Source of the DNA: a virus
Strand: one strand, 5' to 3'
Length of the DNA: 64,000 bases
Virus record (IMG/VR): IMGVR_UViG_3300029827_000121
Span: 9,744 to 73,743 of that record
The position numbers and the translations under genes were made by a program. The notes beneath the pieces are model-generated. The model saw nothing but the letters and a program-made list of their open reading frames with translations, was not told the DNA's origin and searched no databases. Positions 9,350-36,881 of this stretch are shown one piece after another (position 1 is the first letter of the stretch; the number at the start of each line of letters is the position of its first letter).

Positions 9350-10098
9350 TGATCAAATTTAGCCATTTTAATGCTTATCGATGTCAATAGTTGTGTTATT
9401 CTACCAATTACTAGCTAGTTGAATCGTTCTCTATTTGGTTGATAGGGGGAAGGGTAACTTCCTCGAAATCAGCCATTTGCGCGTTTTGAAACGTAGTATA
9501 CGCTTCCTCTCGTGCTTTAGCTGGTGCAATGGTTATATTTTGCTCAATGTCCACTTTGTCGCCGAAATCTTGCCGATTATACCTTGACATAAACCATTGA
9601 CGGTGACCCCAAACACGGTCGAAACGGCGTATGCGGTTACTTGTACGTTTGTAATTATCGTCATTTTCGACCTGATTATTGAGTATTTGAACTTCACCTT
9701 CAAATTCATCCGCGACTGCGTGCGTACGATGTCGTACGGCAGTTCGCCACGTGTTCAACAGTTGAACAGACACCGATCTCCACAGATACACCGTCGTTTT
9801 GGCTAGTCCGTGGCGTTTAACGATATTGTCGATGGTGTCGGTAGTAGTGGCTATTTCGAGGATAATGCTTTGCATTTTTCGGGCGTCATAGTGCTGTAAA
9901 CCGAAGGGCGTTTTCACTGAAGCAGGGACCAGCAATTCTTTTTCCTCAGATGATAGGTGGGATACGTTCGGTTTTTCCTCCCCTTTTATCACCTGCAAAG
10001 CATTTTTATCACTTGTCATGATGCTCCTTTTTTATCTATTTAATAAATTAAATTATGAGCATGCATAATTTAACTCGTTAAATGGCTAAATTTGATCA
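9350..10098. repeat. 19-bp perfect inverted repeat pair flanking terS (9350-9368 / 10080-10098)
   Basis: TGATCAAATTTAGCCATTT and its reverse complement AAATGGCTAAATTTGATCA. Confidence 0.9.
9411..10019 (-). CDS. terS: Terminase small subunit
   Basis: HTH (GLAKTTVYLW) followed by helical region and RQWFMSRYNRQDFGDKVDIEQ motif typical of TerS; upstream of terL. Confidence 0.85.
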   Translation of the reverse strand: MTSDKNALQVIKGEEKPNVSHLSSEEKELLVPASVKTPFGLQHYDARKMQSIILEIATTTDTIDNIVKRHGLAKTTVYLWRSVSVQLLNTWRTAVRHRTHAVADEFEGEVQILNNQVENDDNYKRTSNRIRRFDRVWGHRQWFMSRYNRQDFGDKVDIEQNITIAPAKAREEAYTTFQNAQMADFEEVTLPPINQIENDSTS

Positions 10099-10250
10099 AT
10101 TTGACCATAATTAACTAAAAGTTAAATTATACACGTGTATAATTTAACACGTTAAATTATGAGCATGCATAATTTAACACGTGTTAAATAGCGAAATTCG
10201 TTCAAAAACGCTATTTAACGAATATTAAATTATGAGCGTGTATAATTTAA
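10048..10250. repeat. Four 26-bp palindromic repeats TTAAATTAT-N8-ATAATTTAA
   Basis: Copies at 10048, 10122 (perfect 28-bp palindrome 10121-10148), 10152 and 10225. Confidence 0.9.
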
Positions 10251-10537
10251 ACGATTAATAGGGTATAGGGTTTTTGCACGCGCCCTACGGCGCGTGTTTT
10301 GTTCTCACTTTAAAATGCAATAAAATGCGAAAACAATGAAACCACTATGGTGAAACTAGCTAGCTAGGGTGAAATTGGTCGATATTATTGCCGTGGGGCG
10401 ATTGTGGATAGGCTGTACAGCCTATAGTATTATATCCCCTTCCGTAGGTTTCCCCTATTGGTTAATCCTGATTACTAGAGATTGTCACTAATAGGGTAAT
10501 GGTGTATGGTAAAATTAACCAATAACCGGGAGGTATA

Positions 10538-14905: not shown

Positions 14906-15319
14906 ATGAAAAGATTTTTATTGCCGTGCATTATACTGTTTTTTGTTCCGACAATTAATGGGCAAAATATATATGTTAATGGTCAAGCAAAAGATAATAT
15001 TGGAAATAGATTAATTTATAAAGTCAAAGAGAACATCAGACAATCAAAAGGAATGATTTTATATCCTTCGGAAACCGGTTCAGGTATTCAAATCAACATA
15101 ATTACTTTAGATGCATTAGAAGATAATTTATCCACAGTATATTCTATTGTATGGACATGGACCACTTCAAACAATTTTAAATCATTTATTACTCATCATG
15201 TTGGTATGTGCGGAAAATATAAAATAAATGATGTTGCCGAACAAATTGTTGCCGATACGGATGAAATTATTATGGAATTAAAAAAGATAATACTTGATAT
15301 TTATAACGAAAATCAATAA
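14906..15319 (+). CDS. Secreted protein (signal peptide)
   Basis: MKRFLLPCIILFFVPTING N-terminus; AAGGAG SD. Confidence 0.65.
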   Translation: MKRFLLPCIILFFVPTINGQNIYVNGQAKDNIGNRLIYKVKENIRQSKGMILYPSETGSGIQINIITLDALEDNLSTVYSIVWTWTTSNNFKSFITHHVGMCGKYKINDVAEQIVADTDEIIMELKKIILDIYNENQ

Positions 15320-15390: not shown

Positions 15391-15648
15391 ATTGCCATGG
15401 CGTAGTTGGGCCTTGTTACGCATTGCAAAGCAAAGGTAATGCCAAGTATAGCAATGTATTGTGTTGTAAAGGTATAGTGTAGCTGGGCCATGTTGCGCTG
15501 TGCAAAGGCAAAGCGTAGTTAGGCAATGTAGTGTATGGCAAAGGTAATGCGAAGTTGGGCCATGTAGCGTAATGCAAAGGCATAGCTCTGCGTGGTATAG
15601 TTAAGCCATGCAAAGGCATTGCATAGTTGTGTGAGGTAATGCAAAGGC
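15391..15648 (+). repeat. Array A1: (NNNGY)n + AAAGGY units, about 7 units; putative guide ncRNA
   Basis: Parse: aaaggt aatgc caagt atagc aatgt attgt gttgt aaaggt atagt gtagc tgggc catgt tgcgc tgtgc aaaggc... Confidence 0.9.
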
Positions 15649-15663
15649 ATGCCTTGAGCAAAG

Positions 15664-15740
15664 TAAATTTTCCCTGTCCCGATTCACTGCCTTCATTGTA
15701 TCAGGCGGATGAAGGTAAGGAAAAAGGCAGGGAAAATTTA
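15664..15740. other. Stem-loop insert interrupting array A
   Basis: 13-bp perfect IR TAAATTTTCCCTG/CAGGGAAAATTTA with inner CCTTCAT/ATGAAGG stem. Confidence 0.8.
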
Positions 15741-15754
15741 TAATTATTTTCGCT

Positions 15755-16577
15755 AATGCAAAGTAATGCAGCGCTTGTCACCGCAAAGGCACGGTTTAGT
15801 TTGGCCCCGTGTTTCTAAGCGAAGCAAAGGCGAAGCATTGTGAAGATAGGTGATGATAAGCAAAAGATAAGTAATGTTTTGTAAAGTTTAGTAATGCACA
15901 GGCATAGTTCTGTATTGTATCGTATAGCACAGCAAAGGCATGGTGATGTACAGTGAAGTTCAGCAATGTACAGTAAAGACTAAGTCAGGTGTAGTACAGC
16001 AAAGCAATTGTAACGCACAGCAAAGGCATAGTTCAGTATAGTAAAGTTAAGCGAACCATCGGCAAAGTATAGCGGAGTATAGCTTGGCAAAGACTATGTT
16101 TGGTGCAGAGGGGTGCAGCTAAGTACAGCAATGGCGATGCATAGAAAGGTGGTGGGAAACACTGCACAGGCTAGGCAAAGTGGAGCATAGCTTGGCAAAA
16201 GCAAAGCGGGGCGTCGTTTTGTGTTGTATGGCAAAGCAAAAGCAATGTGAAGCAGGGTCTTGTTTAGCACAGGTAATGCAGTGTATAGTATTGTGTGGCA
16301 ATAGCACAGCGGAGCTGTGTTACGCACCGTTTGGCATAGGCATAGTTTAGTGAAGTAATGCATAGCATAGGCAGAGTCTGGAACAGTACCGTTTGGCACA
16401 GGCATAGTTAAGCCCCGTCATATACAGTTGCGCATTGTAAAGGCTGGGCGTAGTGATGCATAGTGAAGCACAGGCAAAGCTTGGCAATGTAATGTATAGC
16501 TCAGGCAAGGCGTGGCAAAGCATAGTACAGTCGCGCACAGGCAATGCGAGGCGCAGTATGGTGTTGTATTGAAAAGC
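15755..16577 (+). repeat. Array A2: (NNNGY)n + AHAGGY units, about 23 units; putative guide ncRNA
   Basis: Same 5-nt periodic grammar, more degenerate hexamers (aaagac, aaaagc, aatggc). Confidence 0.9.
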
Positions 16578-16582
16578 AAAAA

Positions 16583-16611
16583 GGTTTCGTCTCGTTTTTT
16601 GAGGCGAAACC
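16583..16611. terminator. Hairpin closing array A
   Basis: GGTTTCGTCTC/GAGGCGAAACC stem immediately after the last unit. Confidence 0.5.
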
Positions 16612-25600: not shown

Positions 25601-26045
25601 CGGTGTTTGGTAAGGTAATGCAAAGGCACCGTGGGGTGATGTATTGTCAAGCACAGGTACAGCACGGTTTTGTTTAGCATAGGCAACGCATTGTTATGAC
25701 ATGTTTTGTTAAGCACAGGCATAGTGAAGCAATGTAAAGTTTTGCACAGGCATGGTGATGTAAGGTTTGGTAAGGTGATGCACAGGCAATGCGCGGTGGA
25801 GTTTCGTTATGCACAGGCACGGTTTGGCAAAGCACGGCTTCGTTTTGCATAGGCGGTGTGGCGTTTAGTAAGGTGAAGCTTGGTCATGCACAGGCAGTGC
25901 GCGGTGAAGTTTCGTTATGCACAGGCAAGGCAGGGTAATGTTTGGCCCAGCACAGGCTAAGCTTGGTGTTGTTTGGTAAGGCACAGGAAGAGCAAAGTGA
26001 GGTTTAGTATAGCACAGGCGAAGTAAAGCATAGTCAAGCAAAGGC
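25601..26045 (+). repeat. Array B: 13 complete (NNNGY)4-7 units separated by A(C/T/A)AGGY; putative guide ncRNA
   Basis: 67 of 68 pentamers end in GY; all 13 units end in GC before the hexamer (GCAHAGG core). Confidence 0.95.
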
Positions 26046-26056
26046 AAGGAGCGCGT

Positions 26057-26260
26057 ATGACGAAAGATTCGCTGATGACTCCCGATGAATTGAGTGAGCG
26101 ATTAAACGTCAGTAAGAAGTTCATCGAAAAATACATGGCGTTACGGCGTCTGCCCGGTATGGTAAAAATCGGGGGAATTTATCGGTTCAGGCGTGCCGAT
26201 ATTGAAAAACGACTGACCGGCGGAGAGTTTTTATTGCCGGAGAGAGGAAGAAAAAAATGA
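26057..26260 (+). CDS. xis: Excisionase / HTH_17 recombination directionality factor
   Basis: LMTPDELSERLNVS...LPGMVKIGGIYRFRRADIE; near int. Confidence 0.85.
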   Translation: MTKDSLMTPDELSERLNVSKKFIEKYMALRRLPGMVKIGGIYRFRRADIEKRLTGGEFLLPERGRKK

Positions 26261-26532
26261 GCTTCTACATTTGCGGCAAAGCCGTAAAAGAGTGTGAAGG
26301 GTGTCCCTCCGCCGTCCCGCACAAATGGAGTCCTCGATGTATGCTCGGCGGCTGCCGGGAATACGCCGACCGGTGGAAAAAAGACATTCCGACCTGTGAA
26401 GAGTGTCCTTTCAAAAACACCTGCGTGAAATACGAACAGGGCAATCGATACGATATGTCGAAAACGCCTGAATTCTGTCCGATATACGCCAGCAAAATCA
26501 TCTATAATGCGGTATGCGTAAAAACATTATAG
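26257..26532 (+). CDS. Cys-rich hypothetical protein
   Basis: ATGA overlap with xis; multiple CxxC. Confidence 0.55.
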   Translation: MSFYICGKAVKECEGCPSAVPHKWSPRCMLGGCREYADRWKKDIPTCEECPFKNTCVKYEQGNRYDMSKTPEFCPIYASKIIYNAVCVKTL

Positions 26533-26623
26533 CAGTATGCGTAAAAGCGTAGAAAATATACCCTCTCCTCCCCTACCTGATACTATATTATACTCAGATA
26601 CCCTCCCTGAAAAGGGAGGAGAT

Positions 26624-27676
26624 ATGCGAGTCTGGTATAAGGATGATGCAAACGGGGTCCGGTGGTATTACGTTGACCGGGCATACCGAAACGGCGCGGG
26701 AAAGGCGCGTCACTTCCGCCGCAAGACGGATAATTTCGATCAGCATTTAAAAAATCAGATCGAAGCCCGTTCATTGACGGGAGATTGTTCTTTGACATCG
26801 TTGCGATTTTCCAAATGCGTGGAACTTTATTTGAACGAGCGCGGACGCGGGGGATTTAATCAGGCGTGTTACGACCGGTCGATTAAGGAGCTGGGTCGCC
26901 TGTTTCCCGACAAACAGATTTTCGCCGCCGGTTACAGCCGGTATGTCGGGAATCTTGAAGGGAGCGACCTTGCGGTCAATACGGTCAATAATTATAAAAT
27001 TATTGTCCGGTCGATCTGCAATTTCGCTTATGAGACCGGTCGGTGCGGTCGGGCCACGGTCAGAGATTGGAGGATCAGGAAAGGCAACGAGCGCAATCGG
27101 ATTCTCTCCGACGGCGAAAAAAACGCCCTGATCAATTATTTGACCTTACATAAATCCCATATACTCGAAGCGGTAAAATTCTCCCTTATTAATCCCATCC
27201 GCAAGGGGGATCTTTTCAGTTTGCAACGAAAAGATCTTCAGATGGATGTCTCGCGATGGGTCGTTCGTTTTCAGGCGAAGAAAACGAGAAATAAAATTCG
27301 GGTGACGATCCTGCCGAATATCGACATGGATTTTGTCCGGTACGCCCATTCGTTGCCGGGGGATTGTCCGTGGCTTTTTCCCATGTTGGAACGGAAAAAC
27401 GGAAAGGTTGTCTGGAAAAAAATCAGCGATCCCCGATGGCATTTCGATACGGTTTTAAAACAGGTGGGGATTTATGATTTCAACTGGCACGATTTGAAGC
27501 ATTGCGCGGAGACGTATTTATTGCGGCAGGGATTCACCTATGAGATGTTGCAGAAAATGGGTATTCAAACGAGTCCGAAGACGCAGCATATTTACGATAA
27601 CCGTCGTCAGATTGATATCATAAATGACGTATTATGTAGCCCTCAGGTAGCCTTTCCGGTACGGAAGACGGCATAG
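26624..27676 (+). CDS. int: Tyrosine integrase
   Basis: IRKGDL (R), K, WHDLKH (HxxR variant), Y in TQHIYD; adjacent attP; GGAGG SD before ATG 26624. Confidence 0.9.
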   Translation: MRVWYKDDANGVRWYYVDRAYRNGAGKARHFRRKTDNFDQHLKNQIEARSLTGDCSLTSLRFSKCVELYLNERGRGGFNQACYDRSIKELGRLFPDKQIFAAGYSRYVGNLEGSDLAVNTVNNYKIIVRSICNFAYETGRCGRATVRDWRIRKGNERNRILSDGEKNALINYLTLHKSHILEAVKFSLINPIRKGDLFSLQRKDLQMDVSRWVVRFQAKKTRNKIRVTILPNIDMDFVRYAHSLPGDCPWLFPMLERKNGKVVWKKISDPRWHFDTVLKQVGIYDFNWHDLKHCAETYLLRQGFTYEMLQKMGIQTSPKTQHIYDNRRQIDIINDVLCSPQVAFPVRKTA

Positions 27677-27879
27677 AACCATTGGTTTTATTGGGTGAAA
27701 CCTACTCCGTCGTAGAGTTGCTAAACCTGCGTAGGGGCAACTCTACCGGAGGTTCAAATCCTCTCCCCTCCGTTTTTTTAACGAATTTGGGCACTTTTTT
27801 TAAAAACCTGCTTTCCATCATGAGTATTTTTATCCTCAAATATACTATCATCAGGGCCAATTGTAGTCTTTTTGTAGCC
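27635..27879 (+). mobile_element. attP: core = 3' half of tRNA-Ser(GCT) (27718-27772) with arm-type repeats
   Basis: TT-GCT-AA loop, long variable arm, GGAGG-TTCAAAT-CCTCT T-arm, CCCCTCCG; no 5' half; paired (T/G)GTAG(C/T)C repeats 11 bp apart at 27635/27646 and 27862/27873. Confidence 0.9.
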
Positions 27880-27932: not shown

Positions 27933-29313
27933 AGAGGCGATGCATGGTATGGTTCAGTATTGTTATGCACAGGCAGAGCATGGTTAAGCCAAGCACAGGC
28001 AAAGCGAGGTAGAGCGAAGTCAGGTGATGCACAGGCACAGCAGAGTAAAGTTAGGTCATGCACAGGCAGAGTGATGTCTAGTAAAGCATAGGCGTAGCGA
28101 TGTGCTGTTATGTACAGGCACAACAGAGTAGAGTTTGGTATTGTTTAGCACAGGCATGGTCTAGTTTTGTTTGGCACGGTAAAGCAAAGGCAAAGTGCTG
28201 TAAGGTGAAGCACAGGCATGGTCTGGTTTAGCTTGATATTGCGCGGCACAGGCAATGTAAAGTGAAGTAAGGTGATGCACAGGCGATGCATGGTATAGCA
28301 ATGTATGGCACCGGCATGGTGCAGTGATGTTCAGTAAAGCATGGGCACGGTGCTGTGAAGTGTTGTATAGCAATGGCAAGGTGAAGTAGTGCATTGTGTG
28401 GCAAAGCCATTGCTTGGTGAAGTGCTGTAATGTCGAGCATAGGCAATGCATAGTGAAGCATTGCTCTGCAAAGGCAAAGCGTGGTTTAGTGATGCAAAGG
28501 CATAGTTTTGTGACGTGCTGTTTCGTAAAGCATAGACTATGCGTTGTGACGCTGTGTATTGCAAATGAAAGGCGAAGTGGTGCATGTCGCTGTATGGCAA
28601 AGGCGAAGTAAGGTGAAGCACTGTGATGCATTGTGGAGCACAGGCATAGTGAAGCATTGTGCAGCATAGGTAAGGCAAAGCGGTGTGTTGTTTCGTCATG
28701 CACAGGCATGGTATCGCGGCGTTTAGTGCGGCAAAGGAACGGCAAAGCTTGGCATGGCGATGGTAAAGCGTTGAGTAGTTTGGCACAGCACCGGCAAAGT
28801 AAGGCGAAGTAGTGTTTAGCATAGCATAGGCAAAGCATAGTGAAGATAAGGAACGCGTCGTGAAGTCAAGCACCGGCAATACATGGTAAAGCACCGTTTG
28901 GCCTTGTTAAGGCGAAGTATTGTGTGGTATGGTGTTGTGGAGCATTGCACAGGTATAGCATGGTGCTGTTATACTTTGTGTAGCGCGGGAAAGGCATGGT
29001 AAAGTAAGGTTGTGCCTCGTGTACCACAGGAATGGCAAAGTGAAGTTATGTAATGTGGGACAAAGGCTGAGTAACGTTAAGTAAAGTGATGCATAGGCAT
29101 GGCAACTCGCGGTAACGTATTGCCCGACGAAGCAAAGGTAAAGCATAGCAATGTGACGCGCAGCGGGGCGAGGGTAATGCATAGTAATGTAATGTGCAGC
29201 GGGGCAGGGGTAATGTGAAGTATAGTTTAGTCGCGCAAAAGCTTTGTATGGATTTGCGTAGTTAAGTGTTGCAAAAGCAGGTCGATGTAACGTATCGTAT
29301 GGAACAGCACTGT
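27933..29313 (+). repeat. Array C1: about 41 (NNNGY)n + AHAGGY units; putative guide ncRNA
   Basis: Continuous pentamer/hexamer parse; ends in a T-run. Confidence 0.95.
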
Positions 29314-29370
29314 TTTTTTTAACCATTTTGGAAAAAACCAATTGGATCAAATAGAAAGGAGATGTTCGCG

Positions 29371-29478
29371 ATTGTAAAGTGCTGTATTGCAATGTGGGGT
29401 TTTGCAACGGCTGAGTTGAGCAAGGAATAGTTTGGCGATGCAAAGGTATAGTGTAGTATTGCTAATCAATGCAAAGGT
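29371..29478 (+). repeat. Array C2: about 3 units directly upstream of the RAMP gene
   Basis: attgt aaagt gctgt attgc aatgt ggggt tttgc aacggc ... aatgc aaaggt. Confidence 0.8.
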
Positions 29479-29512
29479 AAATCAACATTCAATTTTATCA
29501 GAAAGGTTTAGT

Positions 29513-30145
29513 ATGAAGACGCTCAAAGTAAAAATCACTTTCCAAGAAGAAGTGTTGGGAACAGCAAGTCCGTCAAAAGAAATCCACGCGGAATATATAG
29601 CCAGCAAAGCTCCCGACAAACTAACGCGGGAAGAAGAAGTGGAAGCTATCGGGATAGAAGAAGTCGTTGAAAAAGCAATGACTATCTTCCCACGCGATAA
29701 GGATAGTAATCCCATCTTTTGGGATTACCAGTGGAAGGGATTTTTCAAAGATACCTGCGCCGCTCTCATGCGCTGTGAAGGATTCGAAACGTATAAGGCA
29801 TCAAAATCCGAATCGGGTAAAGGAAAGAAAGGAGAATTAAGAGCATATAAAAAGGTGATCGATGGATGTATTTTCGTTCACCCGAGAATGATTGCCATCA
29901 AAGTAAAAGGCAAAATGGGAAACTGTCAACGTCCTCTTCGCGGAAATACCGCGCAGGGAGAGAGGATTGCTTTGGCGAACAGTGAAACCGTCCCCGCAGG
30001 AAGCACCTGCGAATTGGAGATTCAATGTTTGAGTGATTCCCATGAAAAGTTTGTGCGTGAATGGCTTGATTACGGCCAATTGCGCGGCATCGGACAATGG
30101 CGTAACTCCGGCAAAGGCCGCTTTACCGTCAATTACTTGAAATAA
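29513..30145 (+). CDS. Stand-alone Cas7/Csm3-like RAMP-fold protein (210 aa)
   Basis: beta1 LKVKITFQEEVLG; PIFWDYQWKGFFKD (equivalent to IPGSSxKGxxR); ETVPAGSTCELEI; C-terminal Gly-rich loop GIGQWRNSGKGRF; GAAAGG SD. Confidence 0.85.
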   Translation: MKTLKVKITFQEEVLGTASPSKEIHAEYIASKAPDKLTREEEVEAIGIEEVVEKAMTIFPRDKDSNPIFWDYQWKGFFKDTCAALMRCEGFETYKASKSESGKGKKGELRAYKKVIDGCIFVHPRMIAIKVKGKMGNCQRPLRGNTAQGERIALANSETVPAGSTCELEIQCLSDSHEKFVREWLDYGQLRGIGQWRNSGKGRFTVNYLK

Positions 30146-31218
30146 GCCATGCTTTGGCAATCCAAAGTATAGGAATGCCCGGTGCGGTCAAGCATCGTTA
30201 ATGCTATGTATTGCAGGGTGGTGTATGGCACAGGCATGGTATCGTTAGGCATAGTAAAGTTAAGCATAGGCAAGGTAAAGCTATGCATTGCCTAGTAATG
30301 GTTTGGTAAAGCAGGGCCGGATACGGTGGAGCAAAGCACAGGCTTGGCGAGGCGTTGTATCGTGTGGCACAGGCATAGAATAGTTAGGAGTGGCCGAGCA
30401 AAAGCCAAGTGATGTATTGTCCGGCAAAGGTAAAGCATAGTGCTATTTCGTTGCGTAGAGCAGAAGCGAGGCGAAGTATAGTAATTCGTAGTATAGCAAA
30501 GGAAGTGTACCGTTAAGTTGCGCGAAGCAAAGGCTGAGTGAAGCGTAGTTTTGCGCCGCAAAGGCAAAGCGAAGTTCCGTTCAGTACGGCAAAGGCATGG
30601 TTATGTTACATACTGTGAAGCCCTGCAAAGGCATAGTTTTGCGTGGTTTAGCGACGCAAAAGAAGTGTGAAGCCTTGTTTCGTATCGCCATGCGAAGGTA
30701 TTGTACTGCGCAGTGCAGTCATGTATTGCAATGGTTGGGCGAAGCCCTGTCCAGTATGGCAAAGCAAAAGCAGTGTATGGTGAAGCTGAGCTAGCAAAGG
30801 ATCAGCATAGTTAAGTATCGCGATGCATTGAAAAGGCTATTCAATGTATAGTGTTGCAAAGGTAACGTGGAGTCAGGTGTTGTTTCGCGATGCAAAGGAA
30901 GAGCATAGTTGTGTTCCGTTCTGCAAAGGCAAAGCGAAGCGAAGTAGCGGCGTGTGAAGCATAGGCGAAACATGGTGGTGTTGAGTATAGTAATGCAAAG
31001 GCAAAGCGAAGCAAAGTAAGGTGTTGTGAAGCATAGGCAGGACATAGTGTGGTGCAGCATGGTAATGCAAAGGCGGAGTGAAGTAATGTAACGTACAGTT
31101 TCGCAGAGGCGTAGTAAAGTACCGTTGTGTTTGACAAAGCAAAGGTTCAGCAAAGCGTAGTATTTTATTGTTCAGCAAAAGCAAAGCTAAGTATCGTTCG
31201 GTCGTGCGAAGCAAAGGC
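30146..31218 (+). repeat. Array D: about 31 (NNNGY)n + AHAGGY units; putative guide ncRNA
   Basis: Starts at the RAMP stop codon and ends 3 bp from the convergent RusA-like stop; AAAGGY dominant. Confidence 0.95.
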
Positions 31219-31221
31219 GCA

Positions 31222-31602
31222 TTATACCTCTTCAATCACTATCACCGTCTGTTCTACCGGCGATATTTCCGGTTTGTGGACCTGATAGCTTTCGATCTGG
31301 TCGGGCGAATCAGTTTCAAGTATTCCGCAATTAACGATTCCGTCGAGTGCAGCTTTTCCCGATATGTTATCAATGTCGGTCTTTTGCTTTCGGGTAGAAT
31401 AAATATCGATATGAACAGGTGAATCAAATGTCTCACCCGAATACGCTGAAACGGGTTCATTTCGAGAAGCCGGTTCCATGTTGGTAACGGAATGGGGAGT
31501 ATTATCTCCATTCTTTTTTTTTCGGTATGCATCAACGATCTGTTGCTTTATATGTTCCGGAATAGGATATTTATTCAATTCCGAGAGATTTCGAATTTTC
31601 AT
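31222..31602 (-). CDS. rusA: RusA-like Holliday junction resolvase
   Basis: TDIDN..GKAALDG...GILETDS catalytic motif. Confidence 0.75.
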   Translation of the reverse strand: MKIRNLSELNKYPIPEHIKQQIVDAYRKKKNGDNTPHSVTNMEPASRNEPVSAYSGETFDSPVHIDIYSTRKQKTDIDNISGKAALDGIVNCGILETDSPDQIESYQVHKPEISPVEQTVIVIEEV

Positions 31603-31708: not shown

Positions 31709-31996
31709 TCATTTCAAAACACCATTTAATAATTCTTTATTAACCTGTTTTATGGCTTCTTTATATAAAGAAATCTGTCTTTCTTCCTTATAATGCTCTA
31801 CCAATCTGTTGAGAATTTCGACAAGCTTATAATGTTCTTTGCAAAATCCATTTTTATTTTTTCCATTTTTATTTAATTTCAACATTAAATAATCAAATCC
31901 CATTTTACCTATATGGGCAATAGACATCGCTCCCACGCCTATTAATGCACCTTGAACTTCTGGATGTATCATGTTATTCATTCCCCGGCATGGCAC
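31709..31996 (-). CDS. Small single-TM membrane protein (possible holin)
   Basis: GALIGVGAMSIAHIG hydrophobic segment; end of late operon. Confidence 0.45.
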   Translation of the reverse strand: MPCRGMNNMIHPEVQGALIGVGAMSIAHIGKMGFDYLMLKLNKNGKNKNGFCKEHYKLVEILNRLVEHYKEERQISLYKEAIKQVNKELLNGVLK

Positions 31997-34900
31997 TACG
32001 CCGCTGCATTTCAGTTACGTATTTCCTCTGTCCCGTTTTAGGCACCTTTTTCATATACTCAACCTGACTACCAGTTAATAATTCCTTTTTTCTGTCGATC
32101 AACTCTTTTCTTTTGTTTTCATCGGTCGTATTCCGCAATTCGGAATCAATTATTTTTCTCTGCGCGGTATTGTTTTTGAACCATGTATTCAATTGCAACC
32201 CTTCGAAACCGTTTTCTTTGGCGGTCTTCACCAACGCTTCAACATCATTAATCGCCCTTTGTTGTTTATCGGTTAATGCCATATTATCTTTTCGTGCTTT
32301 CAAACCCTCACTTACATTATCTCCATACTCATCCAGAATATCATAAAACTTCGTTCGATAATATTCATTCGCCGCCTCTATCGGTCCCGCGACTTCGAAA
32401 TGTTCCGATAATTTTTGAGTCAATGGATTTACTTCATAAATACCGAAAGCTCTTTTTATATTAAACGGTCCTTCCGTTAACCAATCCAATAACGGATTTT
32501 TCGTCGGATCGCCACCTTTTTTGGTACGGGTATATTGAGCGATCGGCGTAATGAGTTTTTCCCCTAAATAACCAATAGTATATCGTTTTCCATATTTGCT
32601 GAATATCCCTTCCCTATGTACCGCATCCGGCATTATTTTTCGATGAGTAAATGGATCTTCGTTTGATTGCAACCCTTGCCACGCTTGAATCAGCGGATTC
32701 ATTAAAGAACCGATATTTTCGGGTGCCCCGCCGCGTATGGCATCCCAAAATTCTCCGGCAGCCTGTTTCGACGTAATTCTTTCGGCTTTCATATCGGAAG
32801 CGATTTTATTCATTTTATCCAAACCAAGCCAACTCATCGCCATGTCAACCGGTTGTTGCGGTGCCCAAACGACTACATTGCCATCCTTGTTTTTAAATAA
32901 ATTCAGATGCCACCGTTCACGAAGATAATCGGGCAATTGCATTTCCATGTCTTTTTTATTTTCAGACAAATTATTATACGCCCATTGCGCCGCATAAGCG
33001 GCAAGGATCGGCGTTGCGGTTTTTAATGCTTTATGCGTTCCTTCATTTCTCGTGATCGCCCGTGCATAATTGCGAAAATTCCCTTCATGAAAACGTACAA
33101 ACGGCATCAATCCCCGGCTAAGAAACAATTGATACGATCTTGGTACAGCCAAATAATCAACCAATACTTCTCTCGCGACTTTCCCAGCCGCCGATTCATT
33201 ATCCAACCCTTTCAAATTTAATCCGGCCAAATTTTGTACCGCTTCGCCTTTATCTACCCTGTCCAACTGATGCGCCAATATGGAAAGCCGCATCAAGGAT
33301 TCCCGATATTCCGATGCCGTTTTATATTTTTCGGACAAACTTTTTAAAATCCCATATCTGAGTTCGGATGTCATCCCACTTCGAGCAACATCTTTTTGCA
33401 AAGCAACATCGTATAATTTCTGTTCAAAACTATTCAGAGTAATATTTTTACCGATGCCTTGAGGATAAAATATTTTCATCGCCACACGGCTGGATTGCGG
33501 CAAATAAGTATATGCATGAGGATCAAAAACCAGAGTGGATATTCCATCACCCATTATATTACCCATCTGATACGGTAATGCAGCCGTCGCTAATGTAAAA
33601 CCTTTCCATTTCTGAGTTAAATGTCCGATATTATAAATCGCATCCATAAAAGGCGGACTTTTTTCAATGAGATTATCAAGATCAACGGCTATTTCCTTCG
33701 GTAATAAATACAATTGAGGTTTGCCCATCGCCGTAATTTCTCTTACCGATTTTCCTCCAAACGGCCCTTTCGTTTCCAGCCAATCCTTAACAAGCATATC
33801 TTCCTGTTGCGCTTTTTCCAGCAAACCTTCACTGATTGCACGCGCCCGGTATCTCGTTTTCTTCCATTCCATCACCTTGTATCGTTTACCATCTATTACC
33901 GTTTCGTATCCTTTATAAAATTTTTGACGTTCTTCCGGCGTAACACGACTTGTTGCATCATATTTCAATGCCTGCTTTGTAAACCAATCCTCTTGTGCGT
34001 TATCAGCTAAAACCTTTGCGATATGGGTCCATACAACGCTGTCGTCAGATGATATCAATCGTTTCGATCCGACCGCTTTTTTCGTATACGGTCGATACGG
34101 TTCGCCGAATTTTCTATTCATCGGCGTTTTCAAACCAAGCATGAATTCAGGAGTATAATCAAGAACTTTATGAGGAAAATAATCTACTTCAAGAGCTGCT
34201 TCCGGCAATTTACCACGCGCTACAAGTTCTTTACCAATACCCTGTAAAACCGTTCTCATATCTTCCACGGCATCGAGAACTTCTTTGCTTGAATTTTTTT
34301 CAACCCAATCCAGATGCTTTTGCACCTGTTCAACATTTAAATCATTCTCAAGCGTCTGACCTTTTAGTCCCCGCAATTTCAAATTTCTCAATAAAAGAAT
34401 ATCAGTTGCTTTTCTGACTCCCCGCTTTCCTTCACTTTTAAACAATTTTGACAGAGATGCATAGCGATATTTAGCAACCGTTTCAAACAATCCTCTTCTC
34501 ATCGTATCGAATTCGGTACGCCGATCATCCCTGTATTGAGGATAGCTTTCAACATCGCTTTCATATTTGGTAAAGCTTTTTTTAATCGATCCGATCGTGG
34601 CATTAATTGATTTTTTTATTTTTTCAATGGGATTTAACGATTCATATCTTCCCGCTTCCAATGTTTCCGCAACCTTTTTTTCTCCACCTTCAACAACTTT
34701 TTTTTCTCCGGGAAGCTGTAAAAAACCTCTCTGTGCCTCCGCTCGTTCAAATTCAGATACATCCTGTGATTTTTTATTCATTTCATTATCGGCATTTTTC
34801 ATTTCATCCGATCTGAATCGAATCGTCTTTTCAACAGTTTCTTCCGGTGAAACCGGTTTCGACTCTATCTCTTTTGTCAACCTTTCTACTTCTGCTGTAA

Positions 34901-36881
34901 CCTTTTCCGATTCAACATCTATAGTGGATTTTTTGTAATTTTCCATCTTACGAGCAATATCAATAGCTTTTTCAATTTGTGATCTTGGTCCCTTTATTCC
35001 CTCCGCTCCTAACGAAAATGGAACATTAAGGCGTCTTGCTTCTTTAATAAGTTCATCCCCTGTCATTTTAGAGGTATTTTTCAATTCGGTTTCCGTCGGC
35101 GGTTTTCTGATTTTTTCAATATTTTCTATTTTAGGCTTTATTTTTGATAAATCATATATTTGTAAAGAAGGCTGAGACGCATCATTACCTTCCGGTCCTA
35201 CTGCATTAGGATAAACAATATTATCTTTTTCATTTTTATAATCAATTTCCAAAGAATTTTTTAAATCACCAGTAACTTCCCATGTTGTAATATTTTTTCC
35301 TCCAAAATATTCTGCCGCACTTTTAGTAGGAGCAAGCCACATTCCTCTATGTGGTTTAAAACCAGGATTTTGATCTCCATGATACCAAATTCTTTTTTTC
35401 TGTGCTTCTTTAAATTGTTCATTAGGATTTTTACTCCATATTATATTTCTTGTAATTTCAATACCACTTTTAGTTGTTGTTTCGAATTCAGCTTGTTCGG
35501 CTTCAATCACCTTTGATATTGACGGCGTTTGCGTCGCTTCAAGGGATTTCCTGATGTTTTCATCGATGCGTTGGCTTGCCTGCGGGGTAAGTTCCCATTC
35601 TTTCGTTTTTCCGGAATTGAGAAGCTTTTTTAATTCATTTCGTTGTGCTTGTTGCTGTACTTCAAATGTCTTCCCTGAAGCAACATCCCTTATGGCGAAT
35701 CCGGCGGATGAAGCAAGAGTAATTATTTCATTTTTCCACCATCTTTTTGAACCGACATCCTGTCCCCTTATTTTTCCAGAAACGATATCATATACCAAAT
35801 CACCAAGAGGTTGTGCTATTAATTGTAAAGGTCCGGCAGGAACGACAATTTCGGGAATTATCGATACCAATCCTCCCCCGCTCTGTTGCGCGACATCTCC
35901 TATAGCCTCGCCGATTTCTTTTCTTCCTATATTTTGTTCAGCGGCGATCGCACCGGCGGTAGTTAATCTCGTAATGGCATTAGTCAATAAAGGAGATTTT
36001 GAAATGATTGTTTTTCCAAGAAGCTTATTCAATGCTCCCGCGCCAATCAAAGCCTGACTTGCCGTTCCAGCGAATTGCCCCGCACCGAATCGTATCGGAG
36101 CGGCCTGTTGCGTTTTTTCTATTTCTCTTTTGGTTTCTTTCGGAAAAAAAGTCGGTGCCAAAGTTGATTGCAATATCCCCATAGCGAAAGCATTCGCTTC
36201 TTTATCTTCTTTTAATAATTTTTCAAGCTCTCCATTCACCGCAATTTTTTGATCATCAGGCAATTTGTTAATTAAATTAATACCTATATCCAACGGCAAG
36301 GATTTCAATTCAAGCGCTTTTGCACGGGGATCTTGAATACTGTAAAATCTTGATTCGATAGCCTTTATTTGCGGTTCAGCGCTTAATTGAGGAATGGGAA
36401 TTTGTCCCGGTTCCGGCTTTTGTTCCGGTTTTTCAATTGTTTCAGAAGGTTCAAAAGATCGCGTTGCGCCAATTGGTTTTTTCGATTCATCCATCGGCTC
36501 TTCCTGCGGAATAATTTTTTCCGCAAAACCTTTAATCGCTTCCACGCCTTTCCCAACGAATTCTTTCCCCCGTTCAAGAAGCGAAGGCGTCTCTATATAA
36601 TTTTTAATATCGGGTTTTTTTTCTATGGCTTTATCAACCAATTCCTTATCATCAATTGAAGCGTATTCCGGATGAAGTTCCTTTAATTTGGCGGCGAATT
36701 CTTTGACGGTATATTTGGTTGGAGAAGAAACAGGAGTGATTTCTTCCTTTATAATATATTGCTCAAGTTCAGGTTTTTTTGATAATGCCTTTTCCACCAA
36801 TATATTATTATCAAGATTTTTGTATTGCGGATATTTATTTTTAAGCTCTTCCGCGAATTCATCAACCGTATATTGCTTCAC
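31974..36881 (-). CDS. Large internal virion / DNA-ejection polyvalent protein (1635 aa)
   Basis: Size, position after tail genes, helical LPD-like C-terminus (PFVRF..., NPLIQ...DPFT), internal ART-like motif. Confidence 0.75.
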   Translation of the reverse strand: MKQYTVDEFAEELKNKYPQYKNLDNNILVEKALSKKPELEQYIIKEEITPVSSPTKYTVKEFAAKLKELHPEYASIDDKELVDKAIEKKPDIKNYIETPSLLERGKEFVGKGVEAIKGFAEKIIPQEEPMDESKKPIGATRSFEPSETIEKPEQKPEPGQIPIPQLSAEPQIKAIESRFYSIQDPRAKALELKSLPLDIGINLINKLPDDQKIAVNGELEKLLKEDKEANAFAMGILQSTLAPTFFPKETKREIEKTQQAAPIRFGAGQFAGTASQALIGAGALNKLLGKTIISKSPLLTNAITRLTTAGAIAAEQNIGRKEIGEAIGDVAQQSGGGLVSIIPEIVVPAGPLQLIAQPLGDLVYDIVSGKIRGQDVGSKRWWKNEIITLASSAGFAIRDVASGKTFEVQQQAQRNELKKLLNSGKTKEWELTPQASQRIDENIRKSLEATQTPSISKVIEAEQAEFETTTKSGIEITRNIIWSKNPNEQFKEAQKKRIWYHGDQNPGFKPHRGMWLAPTKSAAEYFGGKNITTWEVTGDLKNSLEIDYKNEKDNIVYPNAVGPEGNDASQPSLQIYDLSKIKPKIENIEKIRKPPTETELKNTSKMTGDELIKEARRLNVPFSLGAEGIKGPRSQIEKAIDIARKMENYKKSTIDVESEKVTAEVERLTKEIESKPVSPEETVEKTIRFRSDEMKNADNEMNKKSQDVSEFERAEAQRGFLQLPGEKKVVEGGEKKVAETLEAGRYESLNPIEKIKKSINATIGSIKKSFTKYESDVESYPQYRDDRRTEFDTMRRGLFETVAKYRYASLSKLFKSEGKRGVRKATDILLLRNLKLRGLKGQTLENDLNVEQVQKHLDWVEKNSSKEVLDAVEDMRTVLQGIGKELVARGKLPEAALEVDYFPHKVLDYTPEFMLGLKTPMNRKFGEPYRPYTKKAVGSKRLISSDDSVVWTHIAKVLADNAQEDWFTKQALKYDATSRVTPEERQKFYKGYETVIDGKRYKVMEWKKTRYRARAISEGLLEKAQQEDMLVKDWLETKGPFGGKSVREITAMGKPQLYLLPKEIAVDLDNLIEKSPPFMDAIYNIGHLTQKWKGFTLATAALPYQMGNIMGDGISTLVFDPHAYTYLPQSSRVAMKIFYPQGIGKNITLNSFEQKLYDVALQKDVARSGMTSELRYGILKSLSEKYKTASEYRESLMRLSILAHQLDRVDKGEAVQNLAGLNLKGLDNESAAGKVAREVLVDYLAVPRSYQLFLSRGLMPFVRFHEGNFRNYARAITRNEGTHKALKTATPILAAYAAQWAYNNLSENKKDMEMQLPDYLRERWHLNLFKNKDGNVVVWAPQQPVDMAMSWLGLDKMNKIASDMKAERITSKQAAGEFWDAIRGGAPENIGSLMNPLIQAWQGLQSNEDPFTHRKIMPDAVHREGIFSKYGKRYTIGYLGEKLITPIAQYTRTKKGGDPTKNPLLDWLTEGPFNIKRAFGIYEVNPLTQKLSEHFEVAGPIEAANEYYRTKFYDILDEYGDNVSEGLKARKDNMALTDKQQRAINDVEALVKTAKENGFEGLQLNTWFKNNTAQRKIIDSELRNTTDENKRKELIDRKKELLTGSQVEYMKKVPKTGQRKYVTEMQRRSAMPGNE

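What the first reader, a model, noticed from the sequence alone, without database searches (positions are those of the whole stretch)
27933..31218. Stand-alone Cas7/RAMP gene embedded in periodic (NNNGY)n arrays: candidate phage RNA-guided system with a non-contiguous guide code
Seen: a 210-aa ORF (29513-30145) with RAMP hallmarks is flanked on both sides, on the same strand and with almost no gap, by about 2.5 kb of sequence that parses into pentamers NNNGY, with a hexamer AHAGGY every 4-7 pentamers (units mostly 26-41 nt). No cas1, cas2, cas3, cas5, cas6, cas10 or repeat-spacer CRISPR is in the window. Established: Cas7-type RAMPs polymerise on guide RNA with a fixed nucleotide step. Inference: each subunit grips the invariant GY and displays the variable bases, so constant and variable positions are interleaved rather than separated into repeat and spacer. 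With no nuclease nearby, the likely output is binding or silencing of rival phage, MGE or host sequences. From memory, a similar phage RAMP + GGY/NN repeat system (VIPR) has been reported recently. I cannot verify that here, and this locus differs in grammar.
Basis: partly seen in the sequence, partly recalled or inferred. Interest (0 to 1): 0.97.

Follow-up and report, generated by a model that had tools for sequence, protein, structure and literature searches.

The report
VIPR guide-RNA system in a phage
This temperate marsh or sediment phage carries a VIPR system, a small CRISPR-like protein plus arrays of five-base-repeat guide RNAs first described in 2026 preprints. It belongs to a known kind, but has an unusually large guide repertoire of about 4 kb and a repeat variant whose reading rule is still unknown.

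Summary
ORF 29513-30145 (210 aa) folds as a Cas7/Csm3-type RAMP. It aligns end to end with the SUSP1 Vipr protein. About 2.5 kb of same-strand YNNNG pentamers flank it, punctuated by GCA[ACT]AGG every 26-41 nt.

VIPR is described in bioRxiv 10.64898/2026.04.26.720920, 720927 and 2026.10.15.759431. These preprints already mention YNNNG/NNNNG repeats and 'staggered' arrays. So this is a new member of a known kind, not a new system. This scan had already reached the same reading on array B of this genome.

- The window holds more arrays at 15391-16577 and 25601-26045. The total is about 4.0 kb in six blocks and roughly 110-130 units. The median in 159 related loci is 480 nt and the maximum 1.18 kb.
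- 156 of 159 related loci carry the same (NNNNG)n+G grammar next to the gene.
- SUSP1 Vipr binds the first G of GGY through H17 and D177. Here these are T17 and Q195, which matches the loss of that G in the repeat.
- Strains from four studies keep the genes but swap the array content.
- No vap gene, Cas1 or CRISPR array was found.

I could not settle which bases are read. Gapped target searches gave no rule that beat shuffled controls.

The parts
15391..15652 (+). vrRNA array A1, an orphan 13.9 kb upstream of vipr. YNNNG pentamers with 6 GCAHAGG punctuations.
15664..15740 (+). 77-nt hairpin splitting array A (13-bp perfect outer stem). MFE of the folded 106-nt stretch 15650-15755 is -37.8 kcal/mol, z = -4.2. 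No Rfam family matches. Possibly a terminator or processing element.
15752..16577 (+). vrRNA array A2 (826 nt, 12 strict punctuations), closed by a hairpin at 16583-16611.
25601..26045 (+). vrRNA array B, the most regular block: 14 GCAHAGG with spacings of 31, 36, 26 and 41 nt. Contains a two-unit duplication (25760-25822 vs 25868-25930, 84% identical).
26057..27676 (+). Integration module between arrays B and C: excisionase-like HTH_17 (26057-26260), a 91-aa ORF, and a tyrosine integrase (26537-27676, PF00589 at 28.7 bits against a cut-off of 27.1).
It is 100% identical over 56 nt to a site at a contig end in one genome of the phylum of the Chitinivibrionales MAG, and 93-98% identical in many others.
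   Evidence: (loose ends at 27718 and 27761)
27938..29281 (+). vrRNA array C1 (1,344 nt, 261 pentamers, 240 of them YNNNG, 22 strict punctuations). Degenerates towards its 3' end.
29282..29359 (+). Non-periodic spacer with a T8 run and an A-rich tract. In one strain this stretch is replaced by 161 other bases. Candidate terminator or promoter, not shown.
29360..29477 (+). Short array C2 (23 pentamers) directly upstream of the vipr ribosome-binding site.
29513..30145 (+). vipr: a 210-aa single-RRM RAMP (P0001). G-loop G192-I-G-Q195-W196-R197-N-S-G-K-G202-R-F204. Beta-hairpin thumb at about 136-160. N-terminal helical pair at 22-45.
30174..31217 (+). vrRNA array D (1,044 nt, 202 pentamers, 19 strict punctuations). 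Contains a diverged 72-nt tandem duplication (30908-30979 and 30980-31051, 75% identical).

Best explanation
The locus is a VIPR (Viral Interference Programmable Repeat) system of a temperate phage. vipr (29513-30145) encodes a minimal Cas7-like RAMP. The six same-strand arrays (about 4.0 kb) encode its guide RNAs (vrRNAs).

Inferred mechanism, by homology to the solved SUSP1 complex:
- The + strand of the arrays is transcribed.
- The RNA is divided, or at least phased, at the GCA[ACT]AG|G punctuation into guides of 26-41 nt (5-8 pentamers).
- One Vipr protomer binds each pentamer. The invariant G and the following pyrimidine are flipped out and held by the G-loop (W196, R197) and the thumb.
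- The bases between them are displayed for gapped pairing with double-stranded DNA.
- With no nuclease or helicase partner nearby, the output is occupancy and transcriptional silencing. By analogy the targets are competing phages, satellites or prophages in the same host.

The repeat is N-G-Y-N-N rather than G-G-Y-N-N, because this clade lacks the two residues that read the first G in SUSP1. The repertoire grows by duplication of one- or two-unit blocks followed by point divergence. It turns over quickly between strains.

Shown here: the fold, the homology, the grammar, the gene-array linkage across the clade, the strain-level turnover, and the absence of Cas1 and CRISPR arrays. Inferred: transcription, processing, RNP assembly, DNA silencing and the identity of the targets.
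For: Fold: the AlphaFold2 model has pLDDT 88 and pTM 0.84. Foldseek against the PDB gives 157 hits at E<=1e-3, and the listed best hits are backbone subunits of type VII, III and IV CRISPR effector complexes (8z4j E 9e-8, 6xn3 E 1e-7). A profile of 56 homologues hits PDB Cas7 (E 1.4e-5) and Csm4 (E 2e-3) over the G-loop.

Homology to Vipr: hhalign against SUSP1 Vipr (KT454805.2, 28474-29061, minus strand) gives probability 81%, E 1.2e-5, over 175 aligned columns. The G-loop GIGQWRNSGKGRF aligns with GVGDWRPRFGRF.

Repeat-protein match: the SUSP1 structure paper assigns H17 and D177 to G1, R138 and W178 to G2, and R179 to Y3. Here the aligned residues are T17, Q195, W196 and R197. Q195, W196 and R197 are nearly invariant in the clade. 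That fits a repeat that keeps G2 and Y3 and has lost G1.

Linkage: 79 of 80 IMG/VR loci and 156 of 159 loci in all carry same-strand 5-nt arrays beside the gene. Units are (NNNNG)4-8 plus G, and the last pentamer is CRNNG.

Conservation by position: among 272 near-identical unit pairs, position 5 never differs. Positions 1-4 differ 73, 89, 209 and 82 times.

Strain turnover: contigs from four studies (marine sediment, wetland, marsh, salt marsh) are colinear and differ at about 3-6% of positions over most genes. The arrays align only in patches and are replaced by other sequence of the same grammar. Several listed indels in or next to the arrays are 5 nt long.

Phage context: portal, major head and tail-spike proteins; xis and int. 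CheckV rates the record 96% complete.
Against: - No RNA data exist for this phage, so transcription and processing are not shown.
- The hhalign match to SUSP1 Vipr is moderate (81%), and its thumb region is not reliably aligned. I cannot say that the R138 equivalent is kept.
- There is no structured 3' tail like that of type II vrRNAs and no vap gene. Both are typical of described VIPR loci.
- No natural target was found under any reading rule.
- Under the published two-base rule, guides with 4-7 informative pentamers specify only 8-14 bp. In 1.7 Mb of DNA, all 4-step guides and 89% of 5-step guides found perfect matches by chance. Either the rule or the guide boundaries must differ from my simplest picture.
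Confidence: 0.88

Rival explanations
1. Same VIPR machinery, different code. In this N-G-Y clade three bases per pentamer are read (N4, N5 and the base that replaces G1), either contiguously (NNN) or with one skipped target base (NNNx). Short 26-41-nt guides would then reach 12-21 bp of specificity.
For: Both residues that sequester G1 in SUSP1 are replaced (T17, Q195). The position is as variable as N4 (82 against 89 differences). The two-base rule gives too little specificity for these unit lengths. One 21/21 contiguous-triplet match for the guide at 28913 was found in IMG/VR at L163:2165-2185 on the minus strand; my rough estimate of the chance expectation is 0.02-0.05. One 18/18 match of a relative's guide was found in another VIPR-bearing contig (L004 to L131).
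Against: Four further exact NNN scans gave nothing, and one NNNx scan gave nothing. No other guide converges on L163 or on 0.82 Mb of its relatives, and the site is not kept in those relatives. In local tests the excess over shuffles is small and the NNNxx rule shares it through array remnants. Stop-codon depletion in the triplets is mostly accounted for by a general TA deficit, since TAC and CTA are equally depleted.
Confidence: 0.25
2. The punctuation is not a processing site. Long transcripts spanning several units are coated continuously. The canonical GGY at each boundary is a six-base step that the filament tolerates. The functional guides would then be much longer than one unit.
For: The boundary A-G-G-Y is a full canonical GGY motif. 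The structure paper reports natural vrRNAs of up to 30 repeats. No ribozyme or long handle lies between units. This would also solve the specificity problem.
Against: The last pentamer is nearly constant (CA[ACT]AG in 57 of 72 clean units; CRNNG across the clade). That looks like a recognition or handle element rather than guide sequence. Unit lengths are irregular (5-8 pentamers), which does not fit a helical-register device. The first preprint describes staggered arrays as giving separate vrRNAs whose ends abut.
Confidence: 0.15
3. The arrays mainly regulate the phage's own or its host's genes, for example the lysis-lysogeny decision, rather than competitors.
For: Arrays flank the xis-int-attP module and lie in the early region. 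In gut relatives the gene just upstream of vipr is often an antirepressor (AntA/Rha plus KilAC).
Against: No guide gave a better-than-shuffled match to the phage's own 73.7 kb (included in the search set) or to candidate host contigs. The preprint found no self-targeting in other types. Fast strain-level turnover fits an arms race better than housekeeping control.
Confidence: 0.08
4. The periodic DNA is not guide RNA at all. It is either a repetitive protein coded on the minus strand (ORFs of 120-225 aa lie there) or structural satellite DNA.
For: Long minus-strand ORFs overlap the arrays at 28161-28838, 28907-29443 and 30873-31235.
Against: These ORFs are low-complexity (C, L, H, T rich) with no Pfam match. 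The period is 5 with +1 shifts, which is incompatible with a reading frame. Several listed strain indels in or next to the arrays are 5 nt long. The arrays accompany the RAMP gene in 156 of 159 loci.
Confidence: 0.02

Closest known systems
VIPR systems, type II (Escherichia phage SUSP1, Pseudomonas fulva prophage). bioRxiv 10.64898/2026.04.26.720920 and 10.64898/2026.04.26.720927
   Same: A single small RAMP of about 20 kDa with RRM core, G-loop and thumb. Same-strand pentanucleotide-repeat RNA genes sit on both sides of the gene. Phage-borne. No cas genes, CRISPR array or nuclease. The W-R pair of the G-loop is kept.
   Different: The repeat is N-G-Y-N-N rather than G-G-Y-N-N, and the G1 contacts H17 and D177 are replaced by T and Q. 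Units have 5-8 repeats instead of 9-16. A 7-nt punctuation with a +1 shift replaces the ~30-nt structured or pseudoknot tail. No vap gene. About 110-130 units against 4 in SUSP1. The reading rule is untested.
VIPR variants with YNNNG/NNNNG repeats and 'staggered' vrRNA arrays (same preprint, Methods and fig. S17-S18); non-canonical 5-mer VIPR arrays such as WGT/NN and TGH/NN (bioRxiv 10.64898/2026.10.21.760802)
   Same: Only one or two fixed positions per pentamer. Units abut with a 1-nt offset and no spacer element. A Vipr-like fold is encoded next to the array.
   Different: I could not see the figures or the locus lists, so identity with a named type (I-VII) is unverified. Those preprints report no targets, code or RNA data for this repeat class. 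The array load here is 3-8 times that of any of the 159 relatives examined.
Class 1 CRISPR backbone subunits (Cas7/Csm3; type VII Cas7, PDB 8z4j/8yhd; type III-A Csm3, PDB 6xn3/6ifn)
   Same: Best structural matches (Foldseek E 1e-7, TM about 0.5). The G-rich loop motif GxGxxRxxGxGRF is shared at profile level. One protomer per fixed RNA step, with a thumb-induced base flip.
   Different: 10-15% sequence identity. 5-nt step rather than 6-nt. No Cas5, Cas6, Cas10, Cas11 or Cas1-2 found, and no repeat-spacer array. The guide information is interleaved, not contiguous.

Membership tests
VIPR (Vipr + vrRNA) | Vipr protein: a minimal single-RRM RAMP with G-loop and thumb, homologous to described Viprs | tested here: met
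   AF2 model pLDDT 88. Listed best Foldseek PDB hits are Cas7/Csm3-type backbone subunits. hhalign to SUSP1 Vipr: probability 81%, E 1.2e-5, full length. 210 aa, no second RRM.
VIPR (Vipr + vrRNA) | Tandem pentanucleotide-repeat RNA genes with fixed GGY-like and variable positions, next to vipr on the same strand | tested here: met
   YNNNG arrays abut the gene on both sides. 156 of 159 related loci show the same. The fixed part is G-Y rather than G-G-Y, a variant named in the preprint.
VIPR (Vipr + vrRNA) | Not associated with cas genes or CRISPR arrays; mostly viral or proviral | tested here: met
   No Cas1 in the 73.7 kb record. No repeat-spacer array. Phage structural genes and an integrase are present. 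Not every cas family was searched.
VIPR (Vipr + vrRNA) | vrRNAs are expressed as small RNAs and co-purify with Vipr | not testable with these tools
   No RNA run is listed for this sequence. Needs small-RNA sequencing and a pull-down.
VIPR (Vipr + vrRNA) | Gapped DNA recognition: NN read, one target base skipped | tested here: inconclusive
   Eleven reading rules were tested on 888 guides against 1.7 Mb. Five of these rules were also tested on 0.82 Mb of L163-related phage DNA. None beat shuffles. Six exact IMG/VR scans gave one hit, under the NNN rule.
VIPR (Vipr + vrRNA) | Accessory vap gene in an operon with vipr (typical, not universal) | tested here: not met
   vipr is bounded directly by arrays. 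The next gene downstream is convergent (31222-31602) and has no family match. Neighbour clustering over 160 loci found no family shared with this phage. Many gut relatives have an antirepressor upstream.
VIPR type II (SUSP1 clade) | YNNGG repeats x 9-16 followed by a conserved structured 3' tail; G1 read by H17 and D177 | tested here: not met
   Units have 5-8 repeats with no tail. T17 and Q195 stand at the aligned positions. This is a different clade or type.
CRISPR-Cas class 1 | Multi-subunit effector (Cas5, Cas7 and large subunit) with a repeat-spacer array and usually Cas1-Cas2 | tested here: not met
   Only one RAMP gene. No Cas1. No CRISPR array. PADLOC gives nothing for P0001.

The most novel reading that the evidence does not exclude
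In the N-G-Y clade of VIPR, loss of the G1-binding residues has freed a third base per pentamer for pairing. These phages would then use a 3-of-5 code (NNN or NNNx) with very short guides of 26-41 nt. This phage would carry a library of more than 100 such guides, the largest seen among 160 loci, as a broad, fast-evolving anti-MGE repertoire spread over several transcription units.
Probability: 0.22. Interest if true: 0.75.

Novelty: new member of a known kind. Interest (0 to 1): 0.36.

Why it matters
VIPR is months old. Only the GGY/NN type II systems have a proven code, a structure and known targets. This phage is a clear and extreme example of the least-characterised repeat class: a single fixed G-Y, abutting short units, and no tail or accessory gene. 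It offers a compact test bed, one 633-bp gene plus any array block, for three questions:
- Is the base replacing G1 read?
- How are tail-less guides delimited?
- How do guide repertoires expand and turn over? Here the evidence points to duplication and divergence, with strain-level replacement across four habitats.

If a 3-of-5 code were found, the programmable-recognition toolbox would widen. If not, the locus is an ordinary though large VIPR member.

Tried and rejected
- Direct family searches with P0001 gave nothing: Pfam, PHROGs, PADLOC, and phmmer against PDB. Only profile and fold methods see the RAMP.
- Rfam found no family in the window at gathering threshold. In array A at E<=1 there was only a chance miRNA hit on the hairpin, and no hammerhead or other ribozyme.
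- ARAGORN found no tRNA gene. The tRNA-like stretch is the attP core.
- The sigma-70 promoter scan found fewer sites than shuffles, so it is uninformative.
- Target-rule tests:
  - Eleven reading rules x 888 unique guides against 1.7 Mb of VIPR-bearing phage and prophage DNA. None beat shuffled guides. The NNNxx hits were unmasked array ends.
  - Six exact IMG/VR scans gave one NNN hit in a T4-like neck gene (L163). It has no convergence of other guides and is not conserved in 80 relatives, so I treat it as chance.
  - Candidate host contigs carrying the att site showed no related prophage and no guide matches.
- Codon hypothesis: stops in the triplets are depleted (167 against 246+/-13), but TAC, CTA, AGT and ACT are depleted equally and TGA is not. 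This is a dinucleotide effect.
- No RNA holder is listed among public runs.
- Minus-strand ORFs over the arrays are low complexity with no family match.
- The weak Cas2-like hits of the ORF upstream of array A (E 1e-3 to 8e-3, below cut-off) were not upheld. The protein has a signal peptide, and its Atlas neighbours are unnamed ferredoxin-like proteins.
- I could not map the locus to a named VIPR type I-VII. The figures and supplements are not held.
Full report
OBSERVATION

The stretch is as described. Same-base identity at lag 5 is 0.43-0.44 in 27933-29280 and 30146-31218. It is about 0.27 in the coding background and 0.23 in the ORF between them.

A dynamic-programming parse into pentamers with occasional single-base skips gives 240 of 261 pentamers as YNNNG in 27938-29281 and 178 of 202 in 30174-31217. 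The parse scores lie tens of standard deviations above shuffles. Position 5 is always G, position 1 is C or T in 93-96% of pentamers, and positions 2-4 vary and are poor in C.

Runs of 5-8 pentamers end with CA[ACT]AG followed by one extra G. Units are therefore 26, 31, 36 or 41 nt. The strict motif GCA[ACT]AGG occurs 74 times in 4,039 nt of array and 3 times in the remaining 56.8 kb.

The total is about 4.0 kb in six blocks.

THE PROTEIN

P0001 (29513-30145, 210 aa) has no Pfam, PHROGs, PADLOC or direct PDB sequence match. It does have 1,649 cluster representatives at E<=1e-3 in a 1.84-billion-protein library.

With 56 homologues, AlphaFold2 gives pLDDT 88 and pTM 0.84. Foldseek against the PDB returns 157 hits at E<=1e-3. 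The listed best hits are Cas7/Csm3-type backbone subunits of type VII, III and IV effectors. The family profile hits PDB Cas7 (E 1.4e-5) and Csm4 over the C-terminal glycine-rich loop.

WHAT IS KNOWN

VIPR pairs a Vipr RAMP with vrRNAs made of GGY/NN pentamers. It binds dsDNA by reading NN and skipping one target base, and it silences competing phages and satellites (bioRxiv 10.64898/2026.04.26.720920).

The cryo-EM paper shows one protomer per pentamer. G1 is read by H17 and D177, G2 by R138 and W178, and Y3 by R179 and a helix-1 pocket (10.64898/2026.04.26.720927).

The first preprint states that some loci use NNNGG, YNNNG or NNNNG repeats. It also says some arrays are 'staggered', with adjoining vrRNAs offset by 1 nt. 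A later preprint reports WGT/NN- and TGH/NN-type arrays next to Vipr-like folds.

LINK TO VIPR

I located the SUSP1 locus in KT454805.2. GGY/NN arrays flank two genes on the minus strand at 27.5-29.5 kb.

The 195-aa gene carries H17, K33, E71-M72, R138 and D177-W178-R179 at exactly the published positions. hhalign of my family alignment against it gives probability 81% and E 1.2e-5 over the full length.

In that alignment the G-loop GVG-D-W-R of SUSP1 corresponds to GIG-Q195-W196-R197 here, and H17 corresponds to T17. Q195, W196 and R197 are nearly invariant in the clade. So the contacts for G2 and Y3 are kept and both contacts for G1 are lost. This matches a repeat that keeps G-Y and has lost the first G. 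It is an inference from an alignment. The thumb region is not reliably aligned.

THE CLADE

At least 567 IMG/VR contigs and 155 species-representative genomes encode relatives. The genomes are mostly prophages in gut Clostridia MAGs. The closest is a Chitinivibrionales MAG at 61% identity.

Of 159 loci with up to 6 kb of flank, 156 have same-strand 5-nt arrays, mostly directly downstream of the gene. Units everywhere are (NNNNG)4-8 plus G, with the last pentamer CRNNG.

Array length has a median of 480 nt and a maximum of 1,180 nt. This phage has 3.4 kb within 6 kb of the gene and about 4.0 kb in all, so it is a clear outlier. The caveat is that orphan arrays further away in the relatives were not surveyed.

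Among 272 near-identical unit pairs the fixed G never differs. Positions 1-4 differ 73, 89, 209 and 82 times. The pairs are not phylogenetically independent.

CONTEXT

- The record is a 73.7 kb phage, 96% complete by CheckV. It has portal, major head and tail-spike genes.
- An excisionase-like HTH, a tyrosine integrase and an attP core lie between arrays B and C.
- The attP core is 100% identical over 56 nt to a contig-end site in one genome of the Chitinivibrionales MAG's phylum. This suggests, but does not prove, a host in that phylum.
- vipr has no adjacent accessory gene. In many gut relatives an antirepressor or an SSB gene precedes it.
- No Cas1 and no CRISPR array were found.

NATURAL VARIATION

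Contigs from four studies (marine sediment, wetland, marsh, salt marsh) carry strains that are colinear with the window and differ at about 3-6% of positions over most genes. The arrays align only in patches, with many skips and back-jumps.

For example, one wetland contig keeps vipr and the downstream gene but has about 910 unalignable bases in place of the roughly 940 bases of array D. The unaligned ends show the same grammar, including GCACAGGC. Several listed indels in or next to the arrays are 5 nt long.

Within the genome there are diverged duplications of one or two units. This is the behaviour expected of a guide repertoire under diversifying pressure that grows by duplication and mutation.

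WHICH BASES ARE READ?

Under the published rule, guides with 4-7 informative pentamers would specify only 8-14 bp. In 1.7 Mb of DNA, every 4-step guide and 89% of 5-step guides found perfect matches, exactly as shuffled guides did. That motivates a three-base code or longer functional guides.

I tested eleven reading rules on 888 unique guides against all fetched loci, with arrays masked. None beat shuffles convincingly. The NNNxx hits were unmasked array ends.

Exact IMG/VR scans for long guides gave the following:
- One 21/21 hit under the contiguous NNN rule, in a T4-like neck gene at L163:2165-2185 on the minus strand. My rough estimate of the chance expectation is 0.02-0.05.
- Nothing under NNNx.
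- Nothing for four more NNN guides.

No other guide converges on L163 or on 0.82 Mb of its relatives, and the site is not conserved there. I treat the hit as probably chance.

Triplet stop-codon depletion is real but mostly accounted for by a TA deficit. The code question stays open.

VERDICT

This is a genuine, well-preserved VIPR system. It is a new member of a kind described in 2026, belonging to the N-G-Y / abutting-unit class that the preprints mention but do not characterise. Its distinctive points are the size and dispersal of its guide repertoire, the lack of any tail or accessory gene, and the residue-repeat correspondence at the G1 site. An earlier follow-up in this scan reached the same family assignment on array B of this genome.

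Noticed in passing
window 15391-16577: Orphan vrRNA arrays A1 and A2, 13 kb from vipr in the early region. A 77-nt hairpin (15664-15740) splits them, and a hairpin at 16583-16611 closes them. This implies guides supplied in trans from a separate transcription unit.
   Followed up: partly
window 14906-15319: 137-aa ORF just upstream of array A. It has a signal peptide and weak, sub-threshold Cas2-model hits (Pfam E 0.005; PADLOC E 0.001-0.008). Atlas structure neighbours are unnamed ferredoxin-like proteins and a cyclase-domain family. Probably not Cas2.
   Followed up: partly
window 10038-10255: Four copies of a ~41-nt repeat, each holding the palindrome TTAAATTATGAGCATGCATAATTTAA, at spacings of 74, 30 and 73 nt. 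They look like operator or iteron sites in an intergenic region.
   Followed up: no
This is a candidate host lineage. Those contigs carry no relative of this phage.
   Followed up: partly
L004:5151-5975, L008:5220-5957 (gut phage relatives): In many gut relatives the gene directly upstream of vipr is an antirepressor (AntA or Rha N-domain plus KilAC). It may be that clade's accessory (vap-like) partner. It is absent from this phage.
   Followed up: partly
window 31974-36881: 1,635-aa minus-strand ORF next to the locus with no PHROGs or Pfam match. It probably belongs to the structural/tail module.
   Followed up: no
arrays of all 160 loci: Within pentamers the middle variable position (position 3) differs 2.3-2.9 times more often than positions 1, 2 and 4 between near-identical guides. 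The first triplet of a unit is ATG in 12% of guides against 3% internally. Unexplained.
   Followed up: partly
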